Shown piece by piece: positions 2,262 to 62,379 of a stretch of DNA of 64,000 nucleotides; position 1 is the first letter of the stretch; every line of letters starts with the position of its first letter. A program made the position numbers and the translations under genes. The DNA is from a virus. The stretch spans positions 1 through 64,000 of the IMG/VR virus record IMGVR_UViG_3300020274_000001. One strand, written 5' to 3'. The notes beneath the pieces were generated by a model. The model had not been told where the DNA came from. It saw nothing but the letters and a program-made list of their open reading frames with translations, and did not search any database.

Positions 2262-2295
2262 GCACCCTTGGTGACTCTTTTAGGAGGTATCAAAT

Positions 2296-44361: not shown

Positions 44362-44378
44362 CGATACACCCCAAGCGT

Positions 44379-46492: not shown

Positions 46493-47003
46493 ACTACAAT
46501 CTCTCAACTAATTGATTGTAAATCTTGGAAGAACCAAGTGCGCGTCTCTCTCCTTCACAGACCAAGGCAGGTTCTTTTGAGCCTGCTGTCCTCTTGTGGC
46601 CTAACCTTCGGGTTTATCAGTGCCACTTGAGGAATCGCAAAAGTCCTACCCCTCCAAGGGTAGGCGAAAAAAAAATCTCCTAAAAGTAATGGAGATTACT
46701 GTAACGAGGTGGTAGAATGGTCGAGAGGCCGGGGGCCGGCCAGTGGAAACACTGCACGGAACGCCACAATTAGCAATACATTCCTGAGAAACAGGACTGC
46801 GACTACGAACCACATTTAATTGTGGCATCCCGTAAGGGATGAAGAAGAATGTGCTTGTGCTCACGCAAAGGTGTCGTCCCGGGTCATGCCGGCGATACTG
46901 ACACAAGAGGAAACTCGCGGAAGTTATAGTAATTATTGATATTACTCGTGGTTTAGCAACCACATAGAAACTTGGGGTGGCTCCCCTTAGCAAAAAGCCA
47001 TAG
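46480..47003 (+). ncRNA. structured noncoding RNA 1 (about 520 nt)
   Basis: No credible ORF; stems with UUCG (46603-46614), GAAA (46741-46754) and GUAA (46827-46840) loops; TGAAGGAG/CTCCTTCA long stem. Confidence 0.6.
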
Positions 47004-47129
47004 ATGAACGTTCAAGACCTACTTGACAACCCGATGGTTGAGAAGCATATATTTCTCGACTTTGACGGTAACATCGTATGCCGCTTTGAGCATCCGGAAT
47101 TCATTTTCGAGATGACTCAAGAAGCATAA
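47004..47129 (+). CDS. 41-aa hypothetical protein (not in ORF track)
   Basis: ATG immediately after a hairpin+ATAG; MNVQDLLDNPMVEKHIFLDFDG... Confidence 0.5.
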   Translation: MNVQDLLDNPMVEKHIFLDFDGNIVCRFEHPEFIFEMTQEA

Positions 47130-47149
47130 CTTGGCCCAATGGGTCACAG

Positions 47150-47431
47150 ATGTCGTTTAATTACGCATTTATCAAAGCAGACACCAAGGCGGAAGTCCTT
47201 GAGGCAGTTTCAAACTTGCCTCATGAACCGAAGCAAGCGGTTTCTGGAACACAGGCCCATGGCCTGTCATTCAGCGGTCCTGCCGCTGATGAGAGAACAA
47301 CCATATGGTATGACTTGGCTAACCCCCAATACTCCATAATGTTCATCCGAACATTTGTCGACGAAAACGACTATGATGGTAGAGAAATCGACCCATCAGA
47401 GTGGGCGTCGACTATGGAAAGACTCTCATGA
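47150..47431 (+). CDS. hypothetical protein
   Basis: Bounded by two hairpin elements. Confidence 0.6.
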   Translation: MSFNYAFIKADTKAEVLEAVSNLPHEPKQAVSGTQAHGLSFSGPAADERTTIWYDLANPQYSIMFIRTFVDENDYDGREIDPSEWASTMERLS

Positions 47432-47787
47432 TGACCCAATGGGTCACAGATTAGAGCACAAACAGACTGTTGTGGAGGTAGAGAACTGTCTCTGCCCAAA
47501 CGACAGGTGCGTTGACAATCCCTTAGACACGGTTCGGTGGTGCTAAGGAGTATATGAACCGAATAGGAATACAGTGATACAGAAGACCTATGTCACATCT
47601 GCCGGCGAGGCAGAGTAATCCGAAATTCGTCTTCGGTGATGTGTAGAACATATTTTAAGTCCAAAAGACCGAGAATATGTAATACACAAGGTAGGGATGG
47701 GAGTTCGAATATTAGATTTGAACATATATTTGCAAATATATGTGCCAAAAATAGTATTCGAACGTAGTAAATAGAGATGTGTGCATC

Positions 47788-47829
47788 ACATATGTGACTC
47801 ACGCACACTCATATAATGAAGGAGGAGAG
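47788..47829 (+). promoter_or_regulatory. promoter-like repeat, copy 2
   Basis: Same 30-nt core. Confidence 0.75.
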
Positions 47830-48435
47830 GGGAGTATCCTAAAAGGACCCCTCAGAGACAACCAACTCCTTCACAGACGCCTAACCGGTCTTGTTTTGTC
47901 GTAAAAAACAATAAGAAGAACGGTAAACAGAAAGAGAGGGATAGAGGGTCCCTCACAGATTGGGCAGGGAAAGACATCTTGTTGATACTGTCTGTGTTTG
48001 CAAAGATTCTGCATTTATGTAGAATCTGCGTAAACTGCATTTAATTGCAAGCAGGCAGAGGAGAGATGGACGGAACTGTCCGAACACATACAACACAGAA
48101 AAGTTGTAACAGTAAAGCCGATGGTCACTTTGAGAAATCAACGTGACTGTCGGCTATTTTTTATGGCCCCATTGGGGTCTTAGGTTGGGATGAGCCATGT
48201 AAGCGGAACTCAAGATATGTCCATGAGAGACCTCTGTTGAGAATTAAAAAACTCACTTGCTAAATCATCCTCAGATTTGTGGGGGAACCCACATATCACA
48301 AGGAGGTGAAACCTTGAATTTATAATACACAACTTTGCGCAATTAGGAACCGATGATGGAGGGTGGATGCCCGTTGATGTCATTGTGCGGTGTAGCAAAG
48401 TGGGCCCCGTTAGAACATGCCGCCGCGGGCCACAG
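47817..48435 (+). ncRNA. structured noncoding RNA 2 (about 620 nt)
   Basis: No credible ORF; stems 48004-48027 and 48116-48155; 5' TGAAGGAG/CTCCTTCA stem. Confidence 0.5.
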
Positions 48436-48711
48436 ATGAATATCTGCATCCTTTATGCTGATAATCGTCATGTCGATAACATCGACATGTTGTTTCTCTC
48501 AATGAGAGAAAGCCCTGCACGAATCATCGTGCACGAAAATGGCGTTGAGAACGTTGGACTAATTCAGTCCATTCAACGCGAGGACGGCTCTGGGCGGTCG
48601 TTCAATGTCACCGTTTTGGTTGGCGACGAATACCACACGTATTACGTCGGAGAGTATGAAAATAATCCTACTCGACCACGACGAGGAATCAGAGTATTTG
48701 ATTCCGAGTGA
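48436..48711 (+). CDS. hypothetical protein
   Basis: Start reassigned to the ATG after hairpin+ACAG; GLIQSIQREDGSGRSFNVT. Confidence 0.6.
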   Translation: MNICILYADNRHVDNIDMLFLSMRESPARIIVHENGVENVGLIQSIQREDGSGRSFNVTVLVGDEYHTYYVGEYENNPTRPRRGIRVFDSE

Positions 48712-48941
48712 CGGAGCCTATGGTTCCACAGATAAACATGCCAACTATTTCTAAAGTAGTCGGTCACGTCAACGGCACTCCTATATGGGCCGATGTAGAG
48801 ATTAACACCCTTTACACCTGCTCTGACTGCCAGCGTGGTCGATGCAAGATATCGCATGAAGACCAAGTTTGAATCTCATTTCAGACTAATCTTCGACGAA
48901 GTTAATGACTTCACAGAAACAATAGTTTCAGGATTGATAAA

Positions 48942-49236
48942 TATGAACAAAAATAAGAAATCAAACAAAGCAAGCAAAATATACACAAAAATGTTCTGGG
49001 GACCTTTGCGTCGACTCGAACTTGGGCAATATGCCATGGCTACCAGCCGTGCTATTCCTAAGCCACCCGTAGTCAACTCGAAGGCCAAGAAGGACCCAAC
49101 TGGAAGAGTATCATTCGAAATGATGGGAATCCGGTATGACCTAACTTGGGCCCAACTGCGTGACCATTACCCGTTTTATGCGAGTATGGTGGCGAGTAGT
49201 GTGCAATCGTTCGAGGAGAGGGCTCAAGCCCAATGA
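48942..49236 (+). CDS. basic hypothetical protein
   Basis: MNKNKKSNK... downstream of the hairpin at 48898 (start approximate). Confidence 0.45.
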
Positions 49237-49604
49237 CTCTCGGCACACACTGTTGCGTATAGAAAAACCAAGACCTCCAAAGGGGGCGAGTAGAACGACG
49301 ATTCCGTCTACTGGAGGTAAAAGTCAGTCAACAATACCTCTCGCATAACAGACCTTGCGTAAAGTTGACTTAGATTGGTCGTAATTGGTGATGTTAATCA
49401 TCAATTACGACAGTATGATGTTGGTCGTAATTGGTTAAAGTTAATGTAAGTCCCCTCTGAACTCAAGGGCATTCGACGCTCCCAATAGGCTGAGAACATC
49501 AAAAGGAGTGCGAATAATGGCAAGGTCTGAGACAAACTCAAAAATCCTTCGCTATTGAAAAGGTCGCACAGATTATGAGTTGGAGGGCACTCGTATATCA
49601 CACA

Positions 49605-49642
49605 TTAACCGTGTTGTATTATTACAACACGGTTGATTTTTT
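49605..49642 (+). terminator. long hairpin followed by a T-run
   Basis: TAACCGTGTTGTA...TACAACACGGTTG-ATTTTTT. Confidence 0.5.
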
Positions 49643-49668
49643 GGGTTATTGTAACCCATAGAAAACCC

Positions 49669-49830
49669 ATGAAGTGTAAAACTTGTGGGCGACGTATGTC
49701 GAAGAGAACCAACTACCCGTTTGGTCGCTCAAACAAACCTATGCGTAACAAGCGCAGAGAGTCTGTTAAGCGAAACAGCGGTGGGGTTACCTCGATAACT
49801 TGCCAATACTGTGCTTACCGTAAAGAGTAA
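49669..49830 (+). CDS. small basic Zn-finger protein
   Basis: CKTC...CQYC; follows the hairpin+ATAG at 49643. Confidence 0.55.
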   Translation: MKCKTCGRRMSKRTNYPFGRSNKPMRNKRRESVKRNSGGVTSITCQYCAYRKE

Positions 49831-50050
49831 GCCAATTTGGTAAGTGGCCGCTGAAAGGCGGGTCGCGGGCGGTGACCGAACACCAAGGTGACTTTACCTA
49901 ATGTGCCTCGAACATTAAACTAAGTGAAGCAAGAATCTATTGAAAAACCAACTATGGCCCAACGTCTATGACCGAGGAGAACCACTGGTGGCGAGTAATT
50001 AGGTAGTAATGCATATATTAAACAAAAAAAAGGCCCCAAAGGGCCCCAGA

Positions 50051-50221
50051 ATGGCTAATGACTTTGTTATTGACCACGAGACCAATACCGCTTGGATGTG
50101 GGCCACCACAACCCAAGAAATGGTCGAAATGACAATGCTCCTTATGGGGAACATTGTTGCTGGAGGGTTCCGTCTGGAACAACATATCCAGCCAAACAGA
50201 CCGGATAATATGCCGGTTTGA
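50051..50221 (+). CDS. hypothetical protein
   Basis: Bounded by hairpin elements. Confidence 0.5.
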   Translation: MANDFVIDHETNTAWMWATTTQEMVEMTMLLMGNIVAGGFRLEQHIQPNRPDNMPV

Positions 50222-50387
50222 TAAGGCCCCATGGGCCACAGATGTCAGAATGACTATCGTTCTACGAATGCAAATCTTACCCGAGTGCGTTCAACATATA
50301 CACGTGTTATGTTCTCGAAGGCCCATGTGGTCGGTAGAGGTAGAATATTGAGGGTGAATAAATGAAGTCAATGACTTCGCAGAAACC

Positions 50388-50624
50388 ATGCAACTTAATT
50401 TTGCAAATGGATGGGGAGTATCCATCGTCGACTTCGGTTACGGAGCCGAGGAAGGACTTTCCGAATTGGCCGTCTTGAAAGACGGTAGACTGCACTACGA
50501 AAACCCCGTTGCTCGGGGCGACGTTCGCGGTTGGCTTACCGATGACGATGTGGGTAAACTCACATCCGAGGTTGAGTCTTGGTCTTCGGACCAAACTTTT
50601 CCCGAATGGGAAGAGGAAGAATGA
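50388..50624 (+). CDS. hypothetical protein (paralog A)
   Basis: NFANGWGVS...ELAVLK...RGWLT. Confidence 0.7.
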   Translation: MQLNFANGWGVSIVDFGYGAEEGLSELAVLKDGRLHYENPVARGDVRGWLTDDDVGKLTSEVESWSSDQTFPEWEEEE

Positions 50625-50639
50625 CCTAATGGGTCTCAG

Positions 50640-50909
50640 ATGCAAGAAATAATTGATTTTACTTCATCTCTTTATTTTGGAGATGAAGAAAAACTGAATT
50701 TTGCAAATGGTTGGGGAGTCTGCGTCGGCCTGATGATGGCTGGTTGTGGACAGCGGCTCTTCCGCTTGACCGTCCTGAAGAATGGTGACCCATACTTCAA
50801 CGACGACAGAGAATGGAGATGGCTTAAGGAGGCAGATGTCGCAAGACTGTCTGCCATCGTCAAGTCATGGACACCTAACCAAACTTTCCCCGGAGGGGAA
50901 GAAGAATGA
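50640..50909 (+). CDS. hypothetical protein (paralog B)
   Basis: NFANGWGVC...LTVLK...SWTPNQTFP; tandem duplicate of paralog A. Confidence 0.65.
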   Translation: MQEIIDFTSSLYFGDEEKLNFANGWGVCVGLMMAGCGQRLFRLTVLKNGDPYFNDDREWRWLKEADVARLSAIVKSWTPNQTFPGGEEE

Positions 50910-50924
50910 CCTAATGGGTCGCAG

Positions 50925-51101
50925 ATGGAAGAAATTCCACTATTTTTTTTGGACAGAAAGCACCTCTGGGTGGATAAGGACCTCAAGCCTACTGACGAGT
51001 GGGAACGAGCCGAATTCATCATGGAAGGGTCACTTCCAGTTCGAATTGCGAAACCCGGCTCTTTTGGAGCATGGGTTCACGAACTCCGCAAGACGGAGTA
51101 A
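50925..51101 (+). CDS. 58-aa hypothetical protein (not in ORF track)
   Basis: Exactly fills the interval between two hairpin elements. Confidence 0.55.
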   Translation: MEEIPLFFLDRKHLWVDKDLKPTDEWERAEFIMEGSLPVRIAKPGSFGAWVHELRKTE

Positions 51102-51118
51102 CCGGCCAATGGCCACAG

Positions 51119-51355
51119 ATGTATTCCAATACATATGGATTCAGCAGGAATCCCCCCATTTATAGGGGCATTCCCGGAGCAGGAAAAAGCGTTGCCGCTT
51201 TTGACTTGAGAAAACTTAACGAAATCGAAGTTACTGATTTTATTACAGAGTTCGAAAAAGCACTTTCGGGAATACAAGAAGAAAGAAAACTGATTGCCGC
51301 AGATAAAATCCGAAAGGCATTCCGTGCCTATATGGCGAGAACACGCGGAAAATGA
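51119..51355 (+). CDS. small protein with isolated Walker A-like segment
   Basis: IYRGIPGAGKS resembles IYRGLPGSGKS of ORF 54216. Confidence 0.5.
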   Translation: MYSNTYGFSRNPPIYRGIPGAGKSVAAFDLRKLNEIEVTDFITEFEKALSGIQEERKLIAADKIRKAFRAYMARTRGK

Positions 51356-51377
51356 CCCAATGGGTCGCAGAGTAAAC

Positions 51378-52013
51378 ATGTCAAACATAACTGATAATGG
51401 AAACCGCATGGTCGTTGATGACGACCTACATACCTACGCAATGGTTGCGTGGGTGGCGTCGCTGGCGCATAAAGACCAGCAACGTAAAACTGGAGGCGCG
51501 TATATTATGCACCCGTTGGGTGTATCGTGCCTAATCGACCCTGCATGGTCGAAACTTGATAACATGTGCGTGGCCGTTTGCCACGACGTCCTTGAAGACG
51601 TTCCACACATGTTGGATTACGCTAAGGAAGAACTCACTAAATATGGGTTTGGAATTAGTGCTGAAACAGAGCCTTGGGACTTCCTTTCCCCGAAAGGAAA
51701 ACTCACCCATTTGCTGGCTATATGCAGCAATGGGAACACGAGATGGGCTCGCTCTATTACTTCTAAAGTGATGGAACTTACGGTAGTTTGGCCTCGGCCA
51801 GACCATCCGGAAGATGACCCTAAAGACAAAGTTGCGAAGAAGGCGTGGGAAGTCGAGAGGATTCAGAACCTTTCGATGGATGCCGCATCCGTGACGAAGG
51901 CCGATAAGACCTTCAATTCGCTGAACCCAATCCCGGGTCGAGACCCGGTGAAGGAGGCGGCAAAGTATCAGCGATACTTTGACGCTGTTGACGCTCGAAT
52001 GTCGGAGGAGTAA
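51378..52013 (+). CDS. HD-domain hydrolase, RelA/SpoT-hydrolase (Mesh1)-like
   Basis: AHKDQQRK..AYIMHP, CHDVLED, KADKTFN. Confidence 0.8.
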   Translation: MSNITDNGNRMVVDDDLHTYAMVAWVASLAHKDQQRKTGGAYIMHPLGVSCLIDPAWSKLDNMCVAVCHDVLEDVPHMLDYAKEELTKYGFGISAETEPWDFLSPKGKLTHLLAICSNGNTRWARSITSKVMELTVVWPRPDHPEDDPKDKVAKKAWEVERIQNLSMDAASVTKADKTFNSLNPIPGRDPVKEAAKYQRYFDAVDARMSEE

Positions 52014-52045
52014 GACCGACTCGGTTCCCTAATGGGGGACCCCAG

Positions 52046-53083
52046 ATGTCAGACGACATTGAATTGTATGATGAGGTAGACCTCATCAAAAAGATGACGA
52101 GAGATTTGAAAAAATCGTCATCTTCATTGAAGAAACCGGAAGTTCGGTTTCTGGTTGATGCATACTACCGTATGCAGGAAAAGCGTATCCAATACGCCAG
52201 CCAGATTCGAACTATGAAGGAATTCGGTGAGCCGCACGAACTACTAACATGGTTCTACACGCAGGCTCATACCCTTGAAAAGCAAATTGCTGGAGCACTC
52301 GATGCTTACAGCACGAGCAATAAAGTGGGACAATGGATGCGAAGCATTCCGGGCATTGGTCCGGTAATTGCGGCTGGATTCATGGCTCACCTTGATATTG
52401 CTCCGTGGCGTTGTCATAACGTCGGACTCAAGGGCAAGAAAAACCTTCCTTGCACCGCTGAAAAGGGTGCCTGCACAGACAATTGTGGCCACGAGCCTAT
52501 CAATTACGCTGGACAATGGCACACGTTTGCAGGAATGAATCCTCGCATCCAGTGGGAAAAGAAAACACGCCGACCATGGAACACAGCACTCAAAACGCTG
52601 TGTTACAAGTTGGGTGAATCGTTCGTAAAGGTTCAAAACCATAAGGACGATTTCTACGGTCAAATCTTCGTTGCGCGTAAATCCCAAGAATGGGAGCGCA
52701 ACTTCAATGGTGAGAATGCCAAAGCGGCAGAACTTGCTTTGAAGAAAAACATCGGAAAGAACACGAATGCCTACAAGTGGTATTCTGGAGCAGTGGCCAG
52801 TGATTGGGCACGTTCAGAGTGGGAATCCGATAAGAAAGGACAGAAGTTTGGAGGAGCAACGCTCCCCAAGAAAGCAATTGTTGAAGACGGAACACCTATG
52901 CTTCCGCCGGCACACATTCACGCACGAGCGCGACGCTATGTCGCCAAGTTGTTCTTGTTCCACCTGCATCAAGTTATGTGGGAAGTTGAACAAGGTGAAT
53001 CACCGCCACCACAGGCTTTCTTCCAAGACAGTGAAAACATCATTGAGGTGCCAACTGTCTTCCCGAACTCTCCGTTCGTTTGA
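52046..53083 (+). CDS. IS110/Nop-family RNA-binding protein lacking a RuvC domain (TasA-like)
   Basis: Coiled coil LVDAYYRMQEKRI; HhH SIPGIGPVIAA; FAGMNP; PWNTALKTLCYKLGESFVK; AHIHARARRYVAKLFL; no N-terminal DEDD. Confidence 0.75.
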   Translation: MSDDIELYDEVDLIKKMTRDLKKSSSSLKKPEVRFLVDAYYRMQEKRIQYASQIRTMKEFGEPHELLTWFYTQAHTLEKQIAGALDAYSTSNKVGQWMRSIPGIGPVIAAGFMAHLDIAPWRCHNVGLKGKKNLPCTAEKGACTDNCGHEPINYAGQWHTFAGMNPRIQWEKKTRRPWNTALKTLCYKLGESFVKVQNHKDDFYGQIFVARKSQEWERNFNGENAKAAELALKKNIGKNTNAYKWYSGAVASDWARSEWESDKKGQKFGGATLPKKAIVEDGTPMLPPAHIHARARRYVAKLFLFHLHQVMWEVEQGESPPPQAFFQDSENIIEVPTVFPNSPFV

Positions 53084-53112
53084 AGAAAAACAACGGCCCC
53101 AGTGGCCATAGA

Positions 53113-53265
53113 ATGATGTCTTTTGAGACTGAACATGGATTGGTAACAATCCACTTTGATGATAAGAGTTTGATGATTACTTCCAGTAAGCAGGTAATGA
53201 ATATTGAACTCTTTCAAGCCTTCATTGGCTACATGGAACGTATTAATGCTGTTCCGGCTCAATGA
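53113..53265 (+). CDS. hypothetical protein
   Basis: Bounded by hairpin elements. Confidence 0.5.
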   Translation: MMSFETEHGLVTIHFDDKSLMITSSKQVMNIELFQAFIGYMERINAVPAQ

Positions 53266-53272
53266 GCCATAG

Positions 53273-53455: not shown

Positions 53456-53609
53456 AGGCCAATGGCCATAGAACCAACCATCATACAAGAATTGCACTAT
53501 GCACGAATGGTTCACAGAGCACGCTATTAATGAGGAACTGCAAAAGCGGCGAATGCTCATAGAACCAAATCAGAGCCAATGTAATATATTTGAAAAGTAA
53601 GGTTCACAG

Positions 53610-53771: not shown

Positions 53772-53791
53772 AACGGTCTTATGGACCACAG

Positions 53792-54037: not shown

Positions 54038-54062
54038 TGCCAGACGGTCCTATGGACCACAG

Positions 54063-54200
54063 ATGAAATGTCCACACTGTGACAAATCTATCGCTGTCCG
54101 GCTTGAACAACCGGGCAAGAAGGCGGCTCGCCGTCGAACTCTTCGTGCCCGTAAGGCAGAGAAGTTGAGAGAAATCCAACCATCTAACGAAGAAGAATGA
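54063..54200 (+). CDS. small basic protein with CPHC
   Basis: Start after hairpin+ACAG. Confidence 0.55.
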   Translation: MKCPHCDKSIAVRLEQPGKKAARRRTLRARKAEKLREIQPSNEEE

Positions 54201-54215
54201 CCCAATGGGTCGCAG

Positions 54216-54803
54216 ATGTTCTCTAAAAAAGACATTTATGATGATATGATTGGCAATGCCAGTCCCGATGTTATTCGGTATATGAAGGAATATTACGGTT
54301 CACCCCGTAATTTCTTCAACGAAAATGAGGTAGAGGCTTACAACCCTAAACCTCAAAAGCCGAAAAAGAAAGGCACGGTAATCATCTATCGTGGTTTGCC
54401 CGGAAGTGGCAAATCAACTTCCATCTCTAAAAGGTTCCCGAACGCCGCCGTGTGTTCGGCGGACCACCATTTCTATGGTGAAGATGGAGAATACAATTTC
54501 AAACCATGGGAACTTCCCATGGCACATCAAGAGTGTTACTATAATTTCGTCAACCTTCTCTTCGCTGAAGAGGAATTGGTGATTGTAGACAACACGAATA
54601 TGTGTAGATGGGAGTATATGAATTATGCTCTCCTCGCCCAAAAGATGGGATACAAAGTGAGAATCATTTGCATGGCCCCCGGTCTGCATGATTCGACCTC
54701 TATCCCGACACTCGCCGAGCGAAACAAGCATGGAGTGGATGTTGATACCATCTGCAAAATGCAGTCTCGTTATGAACCCGAGTATGGGGAAGAAATTGAG
54801 TAA
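54216..54803 (+). CDS. P-loop kinase (AAA_33 / N4BP2-like polynucleotide kinase family)
   Basis: YRGLPGSGKST, CSADHHF, IVDNTN, RNKHGV. Confidence 0.82.
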   Translation: MFSKKDIYDDMIGNASPDVIRYMKEYYGSPRNFFNENEVEAYNPKPQKPKKKGTVIIYRGLPGSGKSTSISKRFPNAAVCSADHHFYGEDGEYNFKPWELPMAHQECYYNFVNLLFAEEELVIVDNTNMCRWEYMNYALLAQKMGYKVRIICMAPGLHDSTSIPTLAERNKHGVDVDTICKMQSRYEPEYGEEIE

Positions 54804-54821
54804 CGGTCCAATGGACCATAG

Positions 54822-54982: not shown

Positions 54983-55109
54983 CATCCAAGCGTAGATTAA
55001 AATGAGTATGAAATCGAAGACGCAGACTTTCGTGGTCTGCATGACTTTGATGATGTTCGGTCTTTTCACGACCGTCATCATGCAACTCGGCTAATGGCCA
55101 CAGAGCAAC

Positions 55110-55313: not shown

Positions 55314-55540
55314 TTCTTAACGGCCAATGGCCACAGAAAACTGTTAAAGACAATCCGAAGTATGGAGTGACATGCAAGACTACCAAGTCCGATGCACCGT
55401 TGCGGCCATGCTTTATGTCGGAGGGCAAGTTAAGTCCTACGAAGAAGCATTGAAAATTGCAGACAGCATGTTGAATGCTTCTAAGCAGTATCAAGGTTAA
55501 TCGCACATATGTGCCAAAAAAAACCATAGAACAGGGCACA

Positions 55541-55582
55541 ACATATGTGCCTCACGCACACTCATATAATGAAGGAGGAGAG
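55541..55582 (+). promoter_or_regulatory. promoter-like repeat, copy 3
   Basis: Same 30-nt core; an additional CACATATGTG palindrome at 55504. Confidence 0.75.
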
Positions 55583-56715
55583 GACCACCAATCCAGAATC
55601 CTTCATAACCCGAGTGTCGCGGAATACTAATTCCGAATGTCACTCGGGTTAGTGTTATTTCATAGAAGGGAGTTTGCTCGAAGCCGAGCATCCCCACAGA
55701 ATACCTACGTGTAAACCCACAAGTGCCTCTTCGGAGGTTGGCCTAATCAGAGGTCCTCGGCGAAAGCCGACCTAATTGTGGTCTCGTAGGGGACACCACC
55801 CCTCCGGCTTGGCCGGTTGGAGTGTGGATTGTGTGTCTTACCGGGGAGTAGCATGAAGACTCCCAAGGTAGGGCTTGGGTATGGTCCGTTCAAAAGGACC
55901 ATAATGCGCAATTGAACACAAGAAGAAAAAAGACAGGAAAATAGTTTGCCGGTAATCAACCCGGGGCTATGGACGTGTTCGCCTTCGGGCGAAGAAGATG
56001 TGCCGGGAAGAGGAAACCCGGTTGTTCTTGGAAACATTACTGCCGTATTCTGGCTGGCACCAGAAGGAGTAGTGGAGAAAGGAGACCCCCTTGGGGGGAT
56101 ACGGAATCATGCTGGGCCTGCACTAACACTGCGGGGTTCCCGGTGATTCTAACGCGCCTGCGGGTTGATAACCGCAGGCCACCGACCATGACGTGAAAAC
56201 CAAAAGGTCGGCATCTGACACAACCGAGAAATCGGACTTTAGTAGATTAACACTCGAACGAGATTTTCTGAATTGTGGACCTGCCGGTTTAAGACCGGAC
56301 GGGCCGAAAGGTATCAATTGGACTGAGGGACCGCTGAATAAGCGGGTCGGCGTTTTAGTCGTTTACCGAAACAAGGAATGGACACGTATCAACGATAATG
56401 ACTTATCACCAATGAACGTCTTACGGTTAGTTCCGTTCCTGTGAATAACTCAAATGCTCTTGGAGAATGTAGCCGTAAGACGTTAAATTCTCTGTCAATA
56501 GAGCCTCCCCATGCCTCCCCGGATGGACACACGTAGATGATGAACTTATTTCATCCGCCACGCTTTGTGAAAGCAACTACGACAGCAGACAAGGAAGGAA
56601 CATCTTCCTTAACTGCATCATTGAAAGCACTTCACGGCGACATGGTGCGAAGAGGATATCCTCCGAGCACTACAACAACTAAAACAAGAGTGGATTGAAG
56701 TTCACTCTTTTTTTT
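55570..56715 (+). ncRNA. large ornate noncoding RNA (about 1.15 kb)
   Basis: Dense stems with UUCG/GNRA loops (55726, 55757, 55978, 56224); long pairings 55606/55641 and 56415/56472; no credible ORF. Confidence 0.7.
56686..56715 (+). terminator. hairpin plus T-run
   Basis: AAGAGTGGA-TTGAAG-TTCACTCTT-TTTTTT. Confidence 0.55.
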
Positions 56716-56779
56716 GGGATTCGAAACATAGAATATGAAATTTATTTAGAATGAACGAACTCGAATCTCTTAGGTTAAA

Positions 56780-58264: not shown

Positions 58265-58276
58265 TGTCGGGGGCCA

Positions 58277-58738
58277 ATGGCCCCCCCAGTGCAAACCGAT
58301 ACTAACACTATTGATTACACGCAAGCCGTCAATGACGGTATAGTCGTTCTTCAGAACGGCGTCCGGGTGCTTAACAGTTCACCCCACTCCTTCGTCTTCG
58401 ACGATGGGACTACGGTGCCGTCTTGCGGCATCAGCCTCAACTGTGACTTTGTCGAAAACGAGGCTAACCCGAAAGACATTTTCAGCGACCTCACGTTTGT
58501 GACGATTGCGAAGATGCCGCGAGCAGAGGGCATTGCGTTCCTCGACGTCGTTCCAATCGACGTTCTCGTGCTCGGGTCTGCACATGCGGCAGAAGCCTAT
58601 GGCTTTCCTGTCGTTATGCCGGTTCCAACACCGGATTCTAAAAGAGGCTCCTTCGCTGATAGGAGAGTCTGCTCTGACCGTTTCACGGTTACCCAGACTC
58701 CACCCGTTCGTTCGGGGGTCTCTTTGGACAGTCTTTGA
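58277..58738 (+). CDS. hypothetical protein (phage-type)
   Basis: LNSSPHSFVF...VLVLGS pattern; start overlaps a hairpin element. Confidence 0.55.
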   Translation: MAPPVQTDTNTIDYTQAVNDGIVVLQNGVRVLNSSPHSFVFDDGTTVPSCGISLNCDFVENEANPKDIFSDLTFVTIAKMPRAEGIAFLDVVPIDVLVLGSAHAAEAYGFPVVMPVPTPDSKRGSFADRRVCSDRFTVTQTPPVRSGVSLDSL

Positions 58739-58846
58739 GACGGCCAATGGCCACAGTAAACATACAAGGCGATGCCTGCGGAAACGCAGTCATCGCTTAT
58801 TTTTTTGGGCGAGATATTCATATACTCTCGCCGTAGAGGTAAAGAC

Positions 58847-59341
58847 ATGAGTCATTACACTGAAGTAAAGTCGGCATTCAGCAGTGAACACACTACTGAA
58901 ATGGTGTCGGCTTTGGAGGAATTGTGGCCAGAAGCCACAATTCTTGTTAGCGAAGAAGGAACCGCTAAATGCCGTGGATGGCCGGGGCAACAGCCCCGTA
59001 ACTGCCACGTTGTTGTTCGTTTCCGAAACCCAAATATCGAAAAGCAAGGAAACTATGATATTGGGTTCATCAAGAGAGCCGATGGCTCTTATGCGATGAT
59101 TTCTGATTGGTATGCTTGCACATACCCAGAAGCAACGAACGACCAAGGGCGAACCGGTTCTAACGCAGTAGAGGGAATGATTAAGCCACTCTACACTAAG
59201 AATCTGATGAAGAAGACTTTGAAGAAGAACAAGCGATTGCGAGGCTTCAAAGACATCAGTAAGAAGAACGACATTATCACAAAGAAGGATAAGAACGGAA
59301 AGAGTGTTCGATACGCTCGACTACGTTACCAAAGGACGTGA
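58847..59341 (+). CDS. DUF1257 (Ycf35-like) protein
   Basis: MSHYTEVKS..ALEEL...YDIGFIKRADGSYAMISDWY. Confidence 0.75.
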   Translation: MSHYTEVKSAFSSEHTTEMVSALEELWPEATILVSEEGTAKCRGWPGQQPRNCHVVVRFRNPNIEKQGNYDIGFIKRADGSYAMISDWYACTYPEATNDQGRTGSNAVEGMIKPLYTKNLMKKTLKKNKRLRGFKDISKKNDIITKKDKNGKSVRYARLRYQRT

Positions 59342-59345
59342 TTTA

Positions 59346-59564
59346 ATGGGTAAAACGAAATCAGAAATAATCGAGGTTCTAATCCCTGTGGATGACCCCG
59401 ATGTGCCCATCAGTATTGATGCGCTGAATTTCGAAGGTGACGCTTGTTCACTTGCCACCGCAGAGTTTGAAAAGGCTCTCGGTAAGGTCGAGTCGAAGAA
59501 GTTGAAACCAGAGTTTCGAAAGAAAAAGGTCAAGGCAAAACGCAACATTCAGTTGGGTAATTGA
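59346..59564 (+). CDS. DUF2997-like protein
   Basis: ISIDALNFEGDACSLATAEFEKALG..KLKPEF. Confidence 0.75.
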   Translation: MGKTKSEIIEVLIPVDDPDVPISIDALNFEGDACSLATAEFEKALGKVESKKLKPEFRKKKVKAKRNIQLGN

Positions 59565-60532
59565 CCGGAGGAATATCCTCCATAGATGGAAGTATAACAA
59601 CCCATACGCTTGCGTGTGAATTGAATTAGTTCAATTCATACGCACTTGAAACCCTTGCCCTAATGGGGCGAGCATAATCCTCGTGAGGAGGAGGTTATGG
59701 AACGCAAAGACCCGAATCGTAATTACGTCTCCTTGGGAGATGTAATGCGACAGAGGCAACGGCAAAATTCAATTACAGCACCACAGACAAAACGTCCGTG
59801 CTCTCCTGTTTTTGACTCTGAGCACTATCCTCATAGAAAGCAGACGATATTAAAATAGACACACCACATAGTAAGAAGACCGCAACGTCTGCGTATAAGT
59901 CTTGGTCGAAAGGCCAACAGTGGTGTGTCGTTCGGTGAACGGGTGATGCCGCATCGAGGGGTCCGACAATAGAGGGCGAGAGCCGCATGTTTGACGGGGT
60001 TTCACCGCCTCGGAGTGCCGGAATATGGTGTCGCAACCATTTCACAAACTCAATTATCACGGACTTTGCTAAAGCGGTTATAAGCCGCAGGCGAAATCTT
60101 CTGAACCGAATATGGGAATACCACCGTCTGGTAAACGGCCCCATGTTCTTAGGGTGAAAACTCGAGGCATTGCGAGAGTGCAATGCATTCGATGACCATA
60201 CGAGTATTCGTATCTCGCGGGTCGCACAAAATTTCTCGCCAGACTACGTCTGGAACGAAATTTAGAAGCGACAAGAAGCGAATTCTAATGAATACTCCAC
60301 CTACGCACAATACACTCATGCACATCCCCGCGAGATACGAATACTCGTGCCGCGGCATGCATGAAAGACGTGTAAGTTGTCTATGACGAGCATATGGCGT
60401 TGGAATATCTTCTAACGACTATTATGCACGGCGTGCACAAAGGTCCTATCGTAACGTTAGGGCCCATGGATATCTATCGAATGATAAAAACAAATTATAG
60501 TGCAGGAATATAGTCTTGCAACTTATAATGAC

Positions 60533-60670
60533 TTAATCAACGAACATCCAATGAATATTTACCGGTATCTTGACACCCGTTGTTAACCAACAGTTGTCCT
60601 AAGTATTGGGAAAACCATTCGTTTGGTATGAAGAACCATTTGTTATTGAGCCAGAGAAGACTACGTGTCT
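60533..60670 (+). pseudogene. degenerate fragment of the capsid gene (corresponds to about 1983-2120)
   Basis: LINEH/Q*IFTGILTPVVNQQLS*VLGKPFVWYEEPFVIEPEKT vs LITEHQWRISGIETPVIDQQIFEVLEEPFVWYEEPIVIEPEKT. Confidence 0.85.
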
Positions 60671-61448
60671 TACGGTTAAACAATGGAGATGTAACAGAAA
60701 GATGTTCTAAGAGGAATTCTTAGAGCGTTTTTTGTCGACAGTATATAAAGACAGGAATTTTAAGCCTGCATATAAACATTTGACACCGACAAGATGTATC
60801 TTACCCGAGACGGTAAGGATACAACTAAAGAAGACTGAGGTCTCTGACGAGCACTCAATCTTCTCTACTTGTCTTCTGTTGCATCCATCCTTGTGGGACA
60901 TTGTCCCATTTTGCTTTCGCTACGGAAAGGAAGTTGCGTAACTGCGACTTACCCTCCGATGAGGGAGCGGCGTCCCCACCATTATTTGGCTGGGATGTTA
61001 AGGAAAGTTCGTCCAACCCGTCCTCCTCACTTGAGGTGGAAGGTAAAGACATCTCGTTGGTTCCAAGTGACTCTGCATGTAAGGTTGTAACCTCTTGCAA
61101 GGTGTCACCACCATCACTGGAAAGAGACGTAGAATCTTCTACATTTTCTCTTTCTTCGGCGATGGAATCGGTAGTGTTCTTGGACATAACCAGAGGTATG
61201 GTTTCCGAAATATATACATTTCGGGACAATATCTGCTGTAAAACATATTCCAAGGACAAATTGTGGTATTGAACGATACTGCATTCCCATAAACAGGTAG
61301 CAAAGTTCCTCAAGAGTTTTGCTAATACAGTGGCATCATACTGACGTCACAAGTAATCCAGAGATACTCTGGGCATAACCTGCAATATAGGGTAAGAAGA
61401 TATTCTAAGCACAATTGGTGGGTATCCCCACCCCGTGGCCATCTCAAC

Positions 61449-61502
61449 TGGGGCTCTTCGAACAGAGGAGTATCCACAAAAGGTGAATACGGAAAGGCAA
61501 TT
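61449..61502 (+). pseudogene. degenerate fragment of the capsid gene (1740-1793)
   Basis: WGSSNRGVSTKGEYGKAI vs WGYENKGVWPKGEYGKGI. Confidence 0.7.
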
Positions 61503-61694
61503 TGCAATTGCAAAATTCTTGTTGATAAGTAATTCAACAGGGCAGTGATATCGATGATGATGGTAGTCACTCTATTGATAGAGTAGATAAAGCCAATATA
61601 GTCAACAAAGATATTCTAAGTGTATTAACTATTGTAAAGAATAAGTTTTGCCACGCTCGCGTCTCATGATGTTAGTTGGTCAAAACTGCAAACT

Positions 61695-61734
61695 AAAGAA
61701 AATGGAATTACGACCGTATTACGACAAGCCGGCT
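61695..61734 (+). pseudogene. fragment of the capsid gene start (1640-1679)
   Basis: MELRPYYDKPA vs MELRPYYDRPT, with the A-rich upstream flank. Confidence 0.8.
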
Positions 61735-62379
61735 CGGCTTGAGTTTGAGAAAGGTCGTGAGAAACATAGTCTTTGAAGAATAACATAAGGATAGGACATT
61801 CTTATTCAAGAGTGGAAGTATACCCGGTGACCTGACTTTATTGTCAGGGAGAACACAAAAATGTAGAGCAGTCTATCGAATAGACATTGAAATCTACGTA
61901 ATAACAAACCGGCTTCACGCATGCGCAAGAAGAACAACATGTTCTTCCAGCATATGCGGGTTGGACTAATGCTTGAAACATATTCTAAGACTATTATTGA
62001 CATGAAAGGTCGCTTCAAACGTTCCACCCCGGTGGGACCTCTGTGAGCACTACTTTGTTCGGAAGAAAGAAGAGGCGAGAAACGATTCTGCCTTGTTTCA
62101 GAACCATGTCAAGAACATATTCTAAAGCATATCTGCTACTAAATGATGGTAACGAAGAAGGCTGTGTCTTTCTTCTTTCCAATCTTCTTGCTTGTGCAAG
62201 AGCGTGGTAGTAAGATTGCTTGGACTTGCAATCAATTACGATGGCGTATGCGTATGCGTTTTGGAGGGCTGTTTAGCAGTGTGTCCCCGACCCCGGGAAG
62301 CGTTATCAGCGCATTACACACGAAGCCCACCGCCTCGAGGTTAAACACCCCTCGGTTATACGTGACTAAGTCACACAGA

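What the first reader, a model, noticed from the sequence alone, without database searches (positions are those of the whole stretch)
46979..62378. About 30 covarying hairpin+NYAG elements placed directly before almost every gene and ncRNA: a candidate new RNA-processing or gene-cassette system
Seen: a 4-8 bp stem, usually with a 3-nt loop (AAT/TAT/CAT), is followed by ACAG, GCAG, ATAG, CCAG, TCAG or TTAG, then often directly by ATG. Copies start near 46979, 47133, 47433, 48165, 48403, 48713, 48898, 49643, 50032, 50225, 50364, 50623, 50908, 51104, 51354, 52023, 53095, 53256, 53457, 53573, 53775, 54046, 54199, 54805, 55089, 55322, 58269, 58742, 59567 and 62362. Stem sequence varies but pairing is kept (GGCC/GGCC, GGTCC/GGACC, GGCTC/GAGCC, GAAGTC/GACTTC, GTGAC/GTCAC). 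Imperfections are mostly G-T on the + strand, which suggests the element works as + strand RNA. The downstream genes mostly lack Shine-Dalgarno sequences, unlike several structural genes. The element also precedes non-coding segments (47450, 54822). I did not see it in 1-46 kb. Inference: long transcripts are cut or spliced after NYAG to release leaderless monocistronic mRNAs and ncRNAs, analogous to T7 RNase III sites. The co-located P-loop kinase could phosphorylate 5'-OH ends. The catalyst could be a host nuclease, the Nop-family protein or one of the large RNAs. I know of no description of this motif.
Basis: partly seen in the sequence, partly recalled or inferred. Interest (0 to 1): 0.92.

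Follow-up and report, generated by a model that had tools for sequence, protein, structure and literature searches.

The report
Hairpin-plus-YAG gene punctuation, archaeal virus
In one long same-strand block of a marine archaeal virus, nearly every gene and small RNA is separated from the next by a tiny RNA-type hairpin followed by A-C/T-A-G touching the next start, which most likely marks where long transcripts are cut into leaderless messages and also where genes are swapped between related viruses.

Summary
29 of the 30 listed copies are a hairpin plus NYAG. The tight motif occurs 77 times on the + strand and 9 times on the - strand, against 15.6 +/- 4.2 in simulations.

It runs beyond the window to about 91.5 kb of a complete 140-kb archaeal tailed-virus genome. 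The consensus is (A)C, G-stem-loop-stem-C, A, YAG, A.

- Pairing covaries: 4 of 5 pairs show double changes, and 99.7% of cells are paired.
- Imperfect pairs are G.T rather than A.C (13 against 1), so the stem is selected on the sense strand.
- The same C-A-YAG junction closes 41 tigRNA-like units of about 46 nt and some larger RNA domains.

RNA contigs give weak direct support. Non-templated poly(A) follows ...YA at 47766 and 60151, and contigs begin at the G at 60152 and 62378.

No promoter boxes lie upstream. Separate TATA-containing repeats and oligo-T terminators exist.

Relatives swap whole genes exactly at YAG|ATG.

Best reading, at confidence 0.55: an RNA punctuation and processing signal, cut at YA|G by an unidentified nuclease, giving near-leaderless mRNAs. 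It also serves as a recombination joint.

My four searches on the motif found no description of it in print. This scan has noted similar hairpin-TAG punctuation on other marine archaeal-virus DNA (e1-5834951, e1-5354649).

The parts
46974..47003 (+). Two adjacent stems, each followed by TAG. The second (TGGCT..AGCCA-TAG) abuts ATG 47004. First listed copy.
47132..47149 (+). Element TGGCCCaatGGGTCA-CAG|ATG
   Evidence: Joint of a 300-nt indel in relative X13.
47432..47449 (+). Element TGACCCaatGGGTCA-CAG, followed by a non-coding RNA (47450-47766)
   Evidence: The other joint of the X13 indel.
47703..47767 (+). RNA domain closed by a 12-bp stem, then G-UA|G. Non-templated poly(A) starts after 47766.
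   Evidence: Fold -24.5 kcal/mol, z -7.9. X4 loose end of 23 A.
48165..48183 (+). Element GGCCCCattGGGGTCt-TAG
48399..48413 (+). Weak listed copy (4-5 bp stem, TTAG). Edge of a 318-nt skip in an X3 contig.
   Evidence: table 5c
48713..48731 (+). Element GGAGCCtatGGTTCCa-CAG, ATG 6 nt on
48898..48916 (+). Element GAAGTTaatGACTTC-ACAG (A/T-richer stem)
49642..49661 (+). Element TGGGTTAttgTAACCCA-TAG, just after a hairpin + oligo-T terminator-like site (49604-49647)
50032..50049 (+). Element GGCCCcaaaGGGCCc-CAG|aATG
50225..50241 (+). Element GGCCCcatGGGCCa-CAG|ATG
50363..50382 (+). Element TGAAGTCaatGACTTCG-CAG, ATG 5 nt on
50623..50639 (+). Element GACCTaatGGGTCt-CAG|ATG
   Evidence: Joint of a 285-nt indel in X13.
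50907..50924 (+). Element TGACCTaatGGGTCG-CAG|ATG
51104..51118 (+). Element GGCCaatGGCCa-CAG|ATG
   Evidence: Edge of the replaced segment 51105-52035 in X13.
51353..51370 (+). Element TGACCCaatGGGTCG-CAG, ATG 7 nt on
52023..52045 (+). Element GGTTCCCTaatGGGGGACCc-CAG|ATG, in front of the Tas-like gene. The stem is compensated in L230.
52046..53083 (+). Tas/IS110-C-terminal-domain-like protein (345 aa). A mobile cassette found behind three different hairpins in three genomes.
53095..53111 (+). Element GGCCccagtGGCCa-TAG|aATG
53256..53272 (+). Element GGCTCaatGAGCCa-TAG|ATG
53457..53471 (+). Element GGCCaatGGCCa-TAG. Its G starts the first small-RNA unit.
53471..53609 (+). Three tandem stem-closed ~46-nt units (53471-53517, 53517-53562, 53562-53609). 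Each runs G...C-A-YAG, and the last abuts ATG 53610. Listed copy 53573 lies here.
   Evidence: fold
53775..53791 (+). Element GGTCTtatGGACCa-CAG|ATG
54046..54062 (+). Element GGTCCtatGGACCa-CAG|ATG
54198..54215 (+). Element TGACCCaatGGGTCG-CAG|ATG, in front of the kinase gene
54216..54803 (+). P-loop kinase (AAA_33, PNK-like). Possible 5'-OH end healing; inferred only.
54805..54821 (+). Element GGTCCaatGGACCa-TAG, followed by a non-coding stretch (54822-55088)
55089..55103 (+). Element GGCTaatGGCCa-CAG. In L233 this same hairpin precedes the Tas-like ORF.
55322..55336 (+). Element GGCCaatGGCCa-CAG
55669..55699 (+). Nested stem, then C-ACAG, before the abundant RNA. L230 has a different hairpin before the same A-CAG|AATACC.
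55700..56710 (+). Hyper-abundant non-coding RNA. It begins at a junction and ends at a hairpin + T8. Candidate trans-acting factor; speculative.
   Evidence: Depth 2137-3320 (X1) and 1269 (X4). No Rfam match. Terminator-like site.
58269..58289 (+). Element GGGGGCCaatGGCCCCCc-CAG, after the stop of the 494-aa gene
58742..58756 (+). Element GGCCaatGGCCa-CAG. An X4 RNA contig ends at 58752.
59567..59585 (+). Element GGAGGAataTCCTCCa-TAG|ATG
60108..60152 (+). 9-bp long-range stem (GAAUAUGGG/CCCAUGUUC), then U-UA|G. Poly(A) follows 60151 (X4), and an X1 contig starts at 60152.
   Evidence: The fold z-score is not significant (-0.94).
62362..62378 (+). Element GTGACtaaGTCACa-CAG|aATG, in front of the AAA+ ATPase. 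An X1 RNA contig aligns from G 62378.
46463..46493 (+). Copy 1 of a 31-nt TATA-containing repeat (candidate true promoter), at the head of the + strand block
47800..47830 (+). Copy 2 of the promoter-like repeat
55553..55583 (+). Copy 3 of the promoter-like repeat, ahead of the abundant RNA

Best explanation
The element is a sense-strand RNA punctuation signal. It sits in the early/accessory block (about 46.5-91.5 kb, + strand) of a marine archaeal tailed virus.

**Grammar.** A helix whose closing pair is G-C is followed by one nucleotide, usually A, and then YAG. The helix can be a 4-8 bp hairpin, the closing stem of a ~46-nt guide-like unit, or the base of a larger RNA domain.

**Proposed mechanism**
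1. Long transcripts start at a few TATA-containing promoters.
2. An endonuclease recognises the helix end plus A-Y-A-G and cuts between A and G (+/- 1 nt).
3. The upstream product keeps a 3' hairpin with an A-Y-A tail, which can be polyadenylated.
4. The downstream product starts with G, mostly G-AUG or a 5-9 nt A-rich leader. It is translated as a leaderless mRNA, or it is a small RNA whose 5' G pairs with its own 3' C.
5. The same 17-22 nt junction recurs some 100 times, so it also serves as the joint at which whole gene units are exchanged between related viruses.

**Shown:** the motif, its covariation and strand polarity, its position, its conservation in relatives, and the cassette breakpoints.

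**Weakly shown:** RNA ends at the site, from contigs only.

**Inferred:** endonucleolytic cleavage, the identity of the nuclease (host or unrecognised viral), and leaderless translation.
For: **Enrichment and strand bias**
- 77 against 9 hits, with 15.6 +/- 4.2 expected by chance.
- 72 of 91 hits are intergenic or at gene ends in an 84%-coding block.

**Structure kept, sequence free**
- 88 distinct stems.
- 4 of 5 pairs have double changes, and the G-C closing pair is invariant in 65 of 65.
- Orthologous sites carry compensated or entirely different stems before the same junction.

**Sense-strand polarity**
- 13 G.T against 1 A.C; controls give 385 against 386.

**One junction for three kinds of helix**
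- Local hairpins.
- 41 stem-closed units, all on the + strand and 0 on the - strand.
- A 12-bp-closed domain with fold z = -7.9.
- A shared junction after such different helices is natural for folded RNA and implausible for duplex DNA.

**RNA ends**
- Non-templated A22-23 follows 47766 and 60151. Both are ...YA|G sites behind stems.
- X1 contigs begin at 60152 (G) and 62378 (G of CAG).
- In the 41 units, as my pattern defined them, the G of the upstream YAG pairs with the C before the next A-YAG, which places G in the downstream unit.

**No promoter or terminator features**
- Nothing is conserved upstream of the stem except AC.
- Sigma-70-like matches are not enriched: 23 against 24.1.
- The elements carry no T-run.
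- Distinct TATA repeats lie at 46463, 47800 and 55553. Two hairpin + oligo-T sites exist.
- No TFB or TBP is encoded.

**Translation context**
- YAG abuts the ATG in 25 of 53 block ORFs.
- SD-like motifs occur in 6 of 53 block ORFs, against 20 of 34 in the structural block.

**Conservation**
- Seven marine relatives with 97-68% Tas-like identity carry 1.5-2.7 hits per kb on + and 0.1-1.3 on -.

**End-healing enzymes in the genome**
- A PNK-like kinase.
- A PNKP-type HAD phosphatase fused to NUDIX.
Against: - All RNA evidence comes from assembled contigs of metatranscriptomes. The tool says these cannot properly show starts, ends or strand. Only four ends at three sites bear on the claim.
- The contig starts carry 1-2 unmatched letters.
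- A poly(A) tail after an A cannot separate Y|A from A|G.
- Contigs of X3 (labelled RNA) and X13 (type unknown) read through some elements. That fits precursors, but it also fits DNA carry-over.
- No nuclease was found. The genome has no RNase III, beta-CASP, EndA or Cas6.
- The known archaeal aCPSF1 cuts C|A and did not cut U-A in vitro (passages of PMC3553952). Yet 119 of 186 sites are TAG.
- No poly(A) polymerase domain was found, and pure poly(A) tails are not expected in archaea (recalled).
- Stem-less AYAG is not avoided in coding sequence: 194 against 186 +/- 9.
- Sense-strand polarity would also fit a single-stranded DNA hairpin.
- The fold before 60151 is not better than shuffles (z = -0.94).
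Confidence: 0.55

Rival explanations
1. **Stop-start gene junction for the RNA polymerase.** The hairpin ends the upstream transcript, and transcription restarts at the A or G of YAG. Each gene would then get its own primary, leaderless transcript. In effect this is a minimal promoter read by host RNAP rebuilt with the viral Rpo1 and Rpo5 subunits.
For: - RNA contigs begin at the G, and 3' ends lie one base before it.
- Leaderless archaeal mRNAs normally arise by initiation at the start codon (recalled).
- The virus encodes Rpo1 and Rpo5 homologs.
- Intergenic repeats of halovirus HF2 are proven promoters (abstract of PMC8707807).
- PolB's nearest named relatives are HF1/HF2-like viruses.
Against: - There is no TATA/BRE-like or any other conserved signal upstream of the stem.
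- The loop centre lies only ~11 nt from the site, as read from the sequences.
- No viral TFB or TBP is encoded.
- Stem polarity is that of the sense strand.
- Up to two or three tandem ~46-nt units would each need their own promoter.
- The same junction follows long-range stems with 40-60 nt between the arms.
- Separate strongly conserved TATA repeats and oligo-T terminators exist in the same block.
Confidence: 0.2
2. **Primarily a DNA-level cassette recombination site.** It would resemble an integron attC or an HUH/REP site, read as a single-stranded DNA hairpin. The RNA effects would be secondary.
For: - Whole ORF units are present, absent or replaced exactly between elements in relatives: 47137>47438, 50615>50901, 51105>52035, 53084>53271.
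- The Tas-like ORF lies behind three different hairpins in the genome, L232 and L233, with joints at YAG|ATG.
- 82 of 238 BLAST breakpoints lie within 10 nt of an element, against 17.7 expected and a maximum of 34 in 2000 randomisations.
- Sense-strand G.T tolerance also fits ssDNA.
Against: - No tyrosine recombinase or Y1 HUH transposase is detectable. There is only a weak 'Recombinase' domain hit (E 2.6e-5).
- The indel joints contain 14-27 shared letters, as expected from plain homologous or microhomology recombination. PeSLs behave this way (abstract of PMC2839356).
- RNA 3' and 5' ends fall on the element.
- The tight coupling to ATG, the absence of SD, and use of the junction at the ends of small RNAs are not explained by a DNA site.
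Confidence: 0.1
3. **Uncut RNA hairpins.** They would act as 3' stabilisers or barriers to exonucleases and as translational insulators between tightly packed cistrons. The RNA ends seen would come from exonuclease stalling.
For: - The hairpin overlaps or closely follows the stop codon: 31 of 65 stops lie in the loop or 5' arm, and 22 lie within 30 nt upstream.
- 3' ends lie just behind stems.
- Stem-less AYAG is not avoided in coding sequence.
Against: - This does not explain the near-invariant YAG (A and G at 2.0 bits), the A before it, or the A after it.
- It does not explain 5' ends at the G.
- It does not explain use of the same tetramer between tandem small-RNA units.
Confidence: 0.1
4. 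**Splice acceptor.** YAG would be a 3' splice site at which a common leader is trans-spliced onto each gene.
For: - YAG resembles a 3' splice site.
- The virus is present in oligo-dT libraries.
Against: - The 8 shown loose ends lying 'before' a place all differ from one another. Two that I compared read like variant cassettes, not a common leader. 23 further rows were not shown.
- The host affinity is archaeal.
- The site is defined by an upstream helix.
Confidence: 0.02

Closest known systems
PeSL (promoter-early stem-loop) cassettes of T4-type phages (Arbiol et al. 2010, PMC2839356; abstract and section 14 read)
   Same: - Short repeated intergenic modules that hold a stem-loop with G-T pairs.
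- They overlap the upstream stop codon and sit in blocks of small accessory genes.
- Gene insertions, deletions and replacements between related viruses occur by exchange at these modules.
   Different: - PeSLs are built around a sigma-70 promoter (-35/-10, AT-rich upstream region) and end with a Shine-Dalgarno sequence.
- Here there are no promoter boxes and no SD.
- The element is 17-22 nt long.
- A YAG tetramer touches the start codon.
- The host is archaeal.
Unit boundaries of stem-loop TIGR arrays (Faure et al. 2025, PMC12045711, passages; Xu et al. 2026 preprint 10.64898/2026.09.09.750476, sections 7, 10, 11)
   Same: - A Tas/IS110-CTD-like protein is encoded in the block.
- 41 stem-closed units with two variable segments use the same junction.
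- Stem-loop tigRNAs are reported at flexible genomic positions, processed at a short motif at the stem base by an unknown mechanism.
   Different: - The reported motif is CUU. Here it is A-YAG.
- Most elements here are bare hairpins without guide segments, and they precede protein genes.
- Units are scattered between genes along 38 kb, not arranged as an array next to tas.
Mimivirus 'hairpin rule' (Priet et al. 2015, PMC4402537; only the start of the abstract in a search listing seen)
   Same: Intergenic hairpins mark the 3' ends of viral transcripts, which are cleaved and polyadenylated there.
   Different: - Long palindromes cut by a viral RNase III, with a viral poly(A) polymerase (abstract).
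- Here the stems are 4-8 bp and the cut lies about 3 nt after the stem.
- No RNase III or NTP_transf_2 domain is encoded.
- The host is archaeal, not eukaryotic.
T7 RNase III processing sites and mitochondrial tRNA punctuation (recalled; no paper read)
   Same: Polycistronic transcripts are cut at structured spacers into individual mRNAs. In mitochondria these mRNAs are leaderless.
   Different: - The structures are different: ~20-bp irregular duplexes, or whole tRNAs.
- The enzymes are different: RNase III, or RNase P/Z.
- None of these structures is present at the junctions.
Halovirus HF2 intergenic repeats (Viruses 2021, PMC8707807; abstract read)
   Same: Conserved intergenic repeats in an archaeal tailed virus, distantly related by PolB.
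   Different: - They are 29-58 bp AT-rich repeats shown to be promoters.
- The hairpin + YAG elements have no AT-rich box.
- The three 31-nt TATA repeats of this genome are the better counterpart.
aCPSF1 / CPSF73-type cleavage at single-stranded CA (Phung et al. 2013, PMC3553952; passages read)
   Same: - A universal archaeal endonuclease that prefers single-stranded C-A.
- The CAG class exposes C-A right after a helix.
   Different: - Cleavage was after C (C|A).
- A U at that position was not cut, yet most sites here are U-A.
- No role of an adjacent hairpin is described in the passages read.

Membership tests
RNase III processing site (T7 type) | Extended, roughly 20-bp double-stranded stem cleaved within the duplex | tested here: not met
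   Stems are 4-8 bp in 185 of 186 hits. The RNA ends lie 2-3 nt 3' of the stem.
RNase III processing site (T7 type) | RNase III available | tested here: not met
   No Ribonucleas_3_3 match in the viral genome. Host enzymes are unknown.
PeSL cassette | Sigma-70-type -35/-10 promoter within the module | tested here: not met
   No conserved positions upstream of the stem except AC. Promoter-like matches number 23 against 24.1 expected.
PeSL cassette | Shine-Dalgarno sequence before the downstream start | tested here: not met
   An SD-like 4-mer occurs in 6 of 53 block ORFs, against 20 of 34 in the structural block.
PeSL cassette | Gene gain, loss and replacement between relatives at the modules | tested here: met
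Stem-loop TIGR array unit / tigRNA | Tas (Nop/IS110-CTD) protein encoded nearby | tested here: met
   The profile of the 345-aa protein hits 9mty (E 8.8e-16), TasH (E 0.0019) and IS621 (E 0.0028).
Stem-loop TIGR array unit / tigRNA | Unit with two variable spacer segments inside a closing stem | tested here: not met
   Met by the 41 ~46-nt units. Not met by the bare 3-5-nt-loop hairpins, which are the subject of this finding.
Stem-loop TIGR array unit / tigRNA | Processing at a conserved CUU at the stem base | tested here: not met
   The junction is A-YAG in all units and elements.
Mimivirus-type hairpin polyadenylation signal | Long palindromic hairpin at the poly(A) site, with a viral RNase III and poly(A) polymerase | tested here: not met
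   Poly(A) is seen at two junctions. But the stems are short, and no RNase III or NTP_transf_2 is found.
Archaeal promoter (TATA/BRE; HF2 repeat type) | AT-rich TATA box about 25 nt upstream of the start | tested here: not met
   Information content is <=0.18 bits at -30..-3 from the stem. TATA-containing repeats exist elsewhere in the block.
N4-type hairpin promoter | Short hairpin with a 3-nt loop at a fixed distance from +1, read by a T7-like virion RNAP on the template strand (recalled) | tested here: inconclusive
   The geometry of the 3-nt-loop class is similar, as read. Loops of 4-5 nt are as common: 105 of 186. Polarity is sense-strand. The search for a T7-like RNAP found nothing, but its control was uninformative.
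Integron attC / HUH (IS200-IS605, REP) site | Dedicated tyrosine recombinase or Y1 transposase | tested here: not met
   No PF00589 or PF01797 match.
Integron attC / HUH (IS200-IS605, REP) site | Strand-specific single-stranded hairpin bounding one-gene cassettes | tested here: met

The most novel reading that the evidence does not exclude
The virus runs a private RNA 'operating system'. A dedicated, still unrecognised catalyst reads helix-A-YA|G. Candidates are the hyper-abundant ~1-kb structured RNA at 55.7-56.7 kb, possibly with the basic 494-aa protein next to it, or the Tas-like protein.

This catalyst would excise every early mRNA and every guide-like RNA from long transcripts. The products would be healed and adenylated by viral enzymes. 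The RNA-defined unit (YAG| to YAG|) would itself be the unit of gene mobility between viruses. RNA processing and modular genome evolution would then share one signal.
Probability: 0.1. Interest if true: 0.92.

Novelty: new variant of a known kind. Interest (0 to 1): 0.72.

Why it matters
- Marine archaeal viruses are abundant, uncultured, and almost unknown at the level of gene expression. A 17-22 nt signal used about 100 times per genome would explain how dozens of tiny genes without promoters or ribosome-binding sites are expressed.
- It offers a concrete, testable maturation signal for stem-loop tigRNA-like guides. Their processing is stated to be unresolved.
- It points to an unidentified archaeal or viral endonuclease, and to an unexplained polyadenylation activity.
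- It shows regulatory punctuation doubling as the joint of gene-cassette exchange in an archaeal virus.
- The element is small and defined by its structure, so it could become a compact part for cutting or insulating polycistronic RNAs.

Tried and rejected
**Searches that led nowhere**
- Megablast of 46.9-55.5 kb against GenBank phages found no match.
- A single-protein scan of IMG/VR for the Tas-like protein found nothing.
- The alignment-driven IMG/VR scan gave 80 loci at 36-47% identity, none with hairpin-NYAG enrichment. The Tas family at large does not carry the signal. L238 (46%) also lacks it.
- Two exact junction strings searched in IMG/VR gave only single matches per contig, 35 and 114+. 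I take these as chance. Two scans were wasted.
- Rfam found only a tRNA at gathering threshold and two sub-threshold chance hits at E<=1. The ncRNAs belong to no known family.
- CM R1 is too tied to GGNCC stems. It recovers 29 + strand hits at E<0.5 in the genome but misses most 4-5-nt-loop elements. I relied on my own structure scan for counts.

**Tests with negative or weak results**
- My first 'unbiased' mismatch scan was badly designed, because perfect short stems were preferred. I replaced it.
- In one search the A.C-rule hits proved to be a recurring terminal C/A juxtaposition, not an internal wobble.
- Pfam on 50 proteins and six-frame family searches of the genome found none of these: RNase III, beta-CASP, EndA, Cas6, NTP_transf_2, Rpb2, TFB, TBP, tyrosine recombinase, Y1 transposase. 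The T7-like RNAP search had an uninformative control.
- Depletion of stem-less AYAG in coding sequence was not seen.
- RNA contigs leave many parts of the stretch uncovered, and some contig ends lie away from elements. I draw nothing from uncovered parts.

**Readings rejected**
- Spliced leader: no common loose end.
- Bacteroidota phage: my first guess, from the A-rich leaders. It was dropped once thermosome, Rpo1N, MCM and AEP primases pointed to archaea.
- Eukaryotic giant virus: considered because of the oligo-dT libraries. It was dropped for the same reasons and because of PolB's affinity to haloarchaeal tailed viruses.

**Literature**
- Searches for a description of the motif were and the find. 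Nothing relevant turned up.
- Supplementary files were not consulted. TIGRFinder tables or magrovirus supplements could mention such arrays.

Full report
**What the DNA is.**
- The window is the first 64 kb of a 140,336-bp virus record with direct terminal repeats, rated complete.
- It encodes:
  - a thermosome whose best solved relatives are archaeal (E 1.6e-110);
  - a full-length RNA polymerase largest subunit closest to archaeal Rpo1N (E 6.8e-86);
  - Rpo5;
  - MCM and two AEP primases;
  - a family-B DNA polymerase whose nearest named relatives are haloarchaeal tailed viruses at about 24% identity;
  - weak tail and virion PHROG hits.
- I read it as a tailed virus of a marine archaeon. 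The runs that hold it are marine.

**The observation.**
- 29 of the 30 listed copies are a stem directly followed by (N)YAG. The 30th is a ~48-nt unit closed by a long-range stem with the same ending.
- With a tight definition the genome has 77 hits on the + strand and 9 on the - strand, against 15.6 +/- 4.2 in Markov simulations.
- The field does not stop at the window's end. It runs to about 91.5 kb, with 65 tight hits between 46.5 and 92 kb.
- Hits lie between genes: 72 of 91, in a block that is 84% coding.
- 35 of 70 crudely called + strand genes in the block have an element within 60 nt upstream. Elsewhere the figures are 1 of 83 + strand genes and 0 of 43 - strand genes.
- Two flavours exist:
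  - 47-59 kb: mostly 3-nt AAT/TAT loops and CAG.
  - 64-91 kb: 3-5-nt loops that often contain the upstream stop codon, and TAG.
- Among the 65 tight hits, 24 upstream stops lie in the loop, 7 in the 5' arm, and 22 within 30 nt upstream.

**Anatomy.** I pooled 186 hits from the genome and seven related loci.
- Conserved features are:
  - a stem that starts with G and ends with C (closing pair G-C in 65 of 65 rows);
  - usually C before the stem and A after it (104 of 186);
  - YAG (TAG 119, CAG 67);
  - then A (146 of 186).
- What follows is ATG (57), AGC (30) or AAC (21).
- Nothing is conserved further upstream (<=0.18 bits at -30 to -3).
- There are 88 different stem sequences.
- On a covariance-model alignment of 86 hits, 99.7% of cells pair and 4 of 5 pairs show double changes (27 cells against 5.1 +/- 1.8; 0 of 500 shuffles). 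That alignment is fitted to the model, so it leans towards the structure. The seeds had been chosen as paired.
- Orthologous sites give independent support.
  - Before the same gene, the window has GGTTCCCT/GGGGGACC and L230 has GGCACCCCT/GGGGGTGCC.
  - Before the abundant RNA, the two genomes have unrelated stems ahead of the same A-CAG|AATACC.

**Which strand, and DNA or RNA.**
- In a symmetric test, stems with exactly one internal non-Watson-Crick pair carry G.T 13 times and A.C once (p = 0.002). Hairpins elsewhere give 385 against 386.
- The structure is therefore selected on the sense strand.
- The same C-A-YAG ending also follows long-range helices:
  - 41 units of about 46 nt on the + strand, none on the - strand;
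  - a 65-nt domain closed by 12 bp (z = -7.9).
- In all 41 units, as my pattern defined them, the G of the preceding YAG pairs with the C before the next A-YAG (GAACC...GGTTC-ACAG, GAGC...GCTC-ATAG). The G thus belongs to the downstream unit, and the natural boundary is YA|G.
- One ending shared by triloop hairpins and helices spanning 40-60 nt is what a folded transcript would present. It is hard to picture on duplex DNA.

**RNA evidence.** One laying of contigs was allowed.
- In run X4, non-templated runs of 22-23 A follow 47766 and 60151. Both lie at ...YA|G behind a stem.
- In run X1, a contig starts at 60152 (G). Another aligns from 62378, the G of the CAG in front of the AAA+ ATPase gene.
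- Oligo-dT libraries of another study also hold the virus.
- These are contigs, and the tool warns that they cannot properly show ends. There are only four ends at three sites. A poly(A) tail after an A cannot separate Y|A from A|G.
- Some contigs read through elements.
- I count this as weak direct support.

**Not a canonical promoter or terminator.**
- There is no upstream box.
- Sigma-70-like matches are not enriched.
- No viral TFB or TBP is encoded.
- The elements have no T-run.
- The block does contain three near-identical 31-nt TATA-containing repeats, at 46463, 47800 and 55553. The last sits ahead of an RNA roughly 50 to 100 times more abundant than most of its neighbours.
- Two strong hairpin + oligo-T sites also exist.
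- A few real promoters and terminators together with about 100 junctions fit processing of long transcripts.

**Translation.**
- YAG abuts the ATG in 25 of 53 block ORFs, against 1 of 34 and 1 of 26 elsewhere.
- SD-like motifs occur in 6 of 53 block ORFs, against 20 of 34 in the structural block.
- The products would be G-AUG or short A-rich-leader mRNAs. From general knowledge this suits archaeal leaderless initiation. It was not tested here.

**Relatives and cassettes.**
- Seven marine metagenome contigs encode a Tas-like protein 97-68% identical. They carry the element at 1.5-2.7 hits per kb on the gene strand, with other stems such as GACGC/GCGTC, GTCTC/GAGAC and GGTGA/TCACC.
- Loci at <=47% identity do not carry it.
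- A related genome in run X13 lacks or replaces whole genes, with joints inside the elements.
- The Tas-like ORF follows three different hairpins in this genome, L232 and L233. In this genome, two of those hairpins precede other genes, at 66,045 and 55,101. The joints are at YAG|ATG.
- 82 of 238 BLAST breakpoints lie within 10 nt of an element, against 17.7 expected. That count includes many short paralogous hits, so it is noisy.
- No recombinase of the usual kinds was found.
- The joints share 14-27 letters. Plain recombination at the repeated junction, as described for PeSLs, is therefore enough to explain the exchanges.

**Who cuts.** This is unknown.
- The virus has no detectable RNase III, beta-CASP, EndA or Cas6, and no poly(A) polymerase domain.
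- Archaeal aCPSF1 prefers single-stranded C-A, but it cuts after C and did not cut U-A.
- Dual-repeat Tas proteins cut their own guides with a Tyr/His pair. Stem-loop systems lack that loop and are processed at CUU by an unknown route.
- A PNK-like kinase and a PNKP-type phosphatase could heal 5'-OH and 3'-phosphate ends. This is circumstantial.

**Comparison and novelty.**
- Functionally the element resembles other transcript punctuation: T7 RNase III sites, mitochondrial tRNA punctuation, and the Mimivirus hairpin rule. In genome dynamics it resembles PeSL cassettes.
- It fails the defining features of each of these families (see the membership table).
- My searches found no description of it.
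- This scan has already noted the same punctuation in this genome (e1-6146779, e1-6146791). It has also noted similar hairpin-TAG or hairpin-hexamer junctions on other marine archaeal-virus DNA (e1-5834951, e1-5354649). I did not re-examine those other genomes.
- I class it as a new variant of a known kind, namely cis-acting punctuation of polycistronic viral RNA. The motif and the enzyme are both undescribed.

**Verdict.**
- The processing reading is the best supported, at confidence 0.55.
- The main rival is stop-start initiation, at 0.2.
- Interest: 0.72.

Noticed in passing
window 38529-45066 (- strand): The virus encodes a fused full-length Rpo1 homolog (1664 aa) and an Rpo5 homolog. It encodes no Rpo2, TFB or TBP. 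This suggests replacement of host RNAP subunits rather than a complete viral polymerase.
   Followed up: partly
window ~55700-56710: A structured non-coding RNA is roughly 50 to 100 times more abundant than most neighbouring transcripts in two metatranscriptome studies (depth 2137-3320 and 1269). It has no Rfam match. It lies behind a conserved TATA repeat, ends at a hairpin + T8, and is followed by a very basic 494-aa protein with no Pfam hit.
   Followed up: partly
window 47766 and 60151: Non-templated poly(A) of 22-23 A appears on viral RNA contigs, and the virus is present in oligo-dT libraries. Yet the host looks archaeal, and no nucleotidyltransferase domain was found in the genome.
   Followed up: partly
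window 46463-46493, 47800-47830, 55553-55583: There are three near-identical 31-nt repeats containing CATATAAT, each preceded by a CACATATGTG-like palindrome. They are candidate strong promoters of the + strand block.
   Followed up: partly
window 53471-53609 and genome 64-91.5 kb (L310, L311): 41 stem-closed ~46-nt units are scattered between genes. Each has two ~8-nt variable segments around a conserved GAAWTRCA core, and they fall into two families (GAACC/GGTTC and GAGC/GCTC closings). They look like tigRNAs. A Tas/IS110-CTD-like protein is encoded at 52046-53083.
   Followed up: partly
genome 120450-123200 (L312:16450-19200) and 131318-137944 (L313:7318-13944): Two large multidomain proteins stand out. 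A 916-aa protein fuses a PNKP-type HAD phosphatase with NUDIX. A 2208-aa protein has HD, guanylate kinase, Ham1 and DUF5824 domains.
   Followed up: no
window 1-38500 versus 46500-64000: The structural block uses Shine-Dalgarno-like motifs (20 of 34 ORFs). The element block largely does not (6 of 53). One virus therefore uses two translation-initiation styles.
   Followed up: yes
window 61390-62130: A recurring decamer, ATATTCTAAG, occurs in at least three copies in the 59.6-62.4 kb non-coding region. I saw it by eye and did not analyse it.
   Followed up: no
window 30366-30440: A single tRNA-Arg (CCG) gene lies in the structural block.
   Followed up: no
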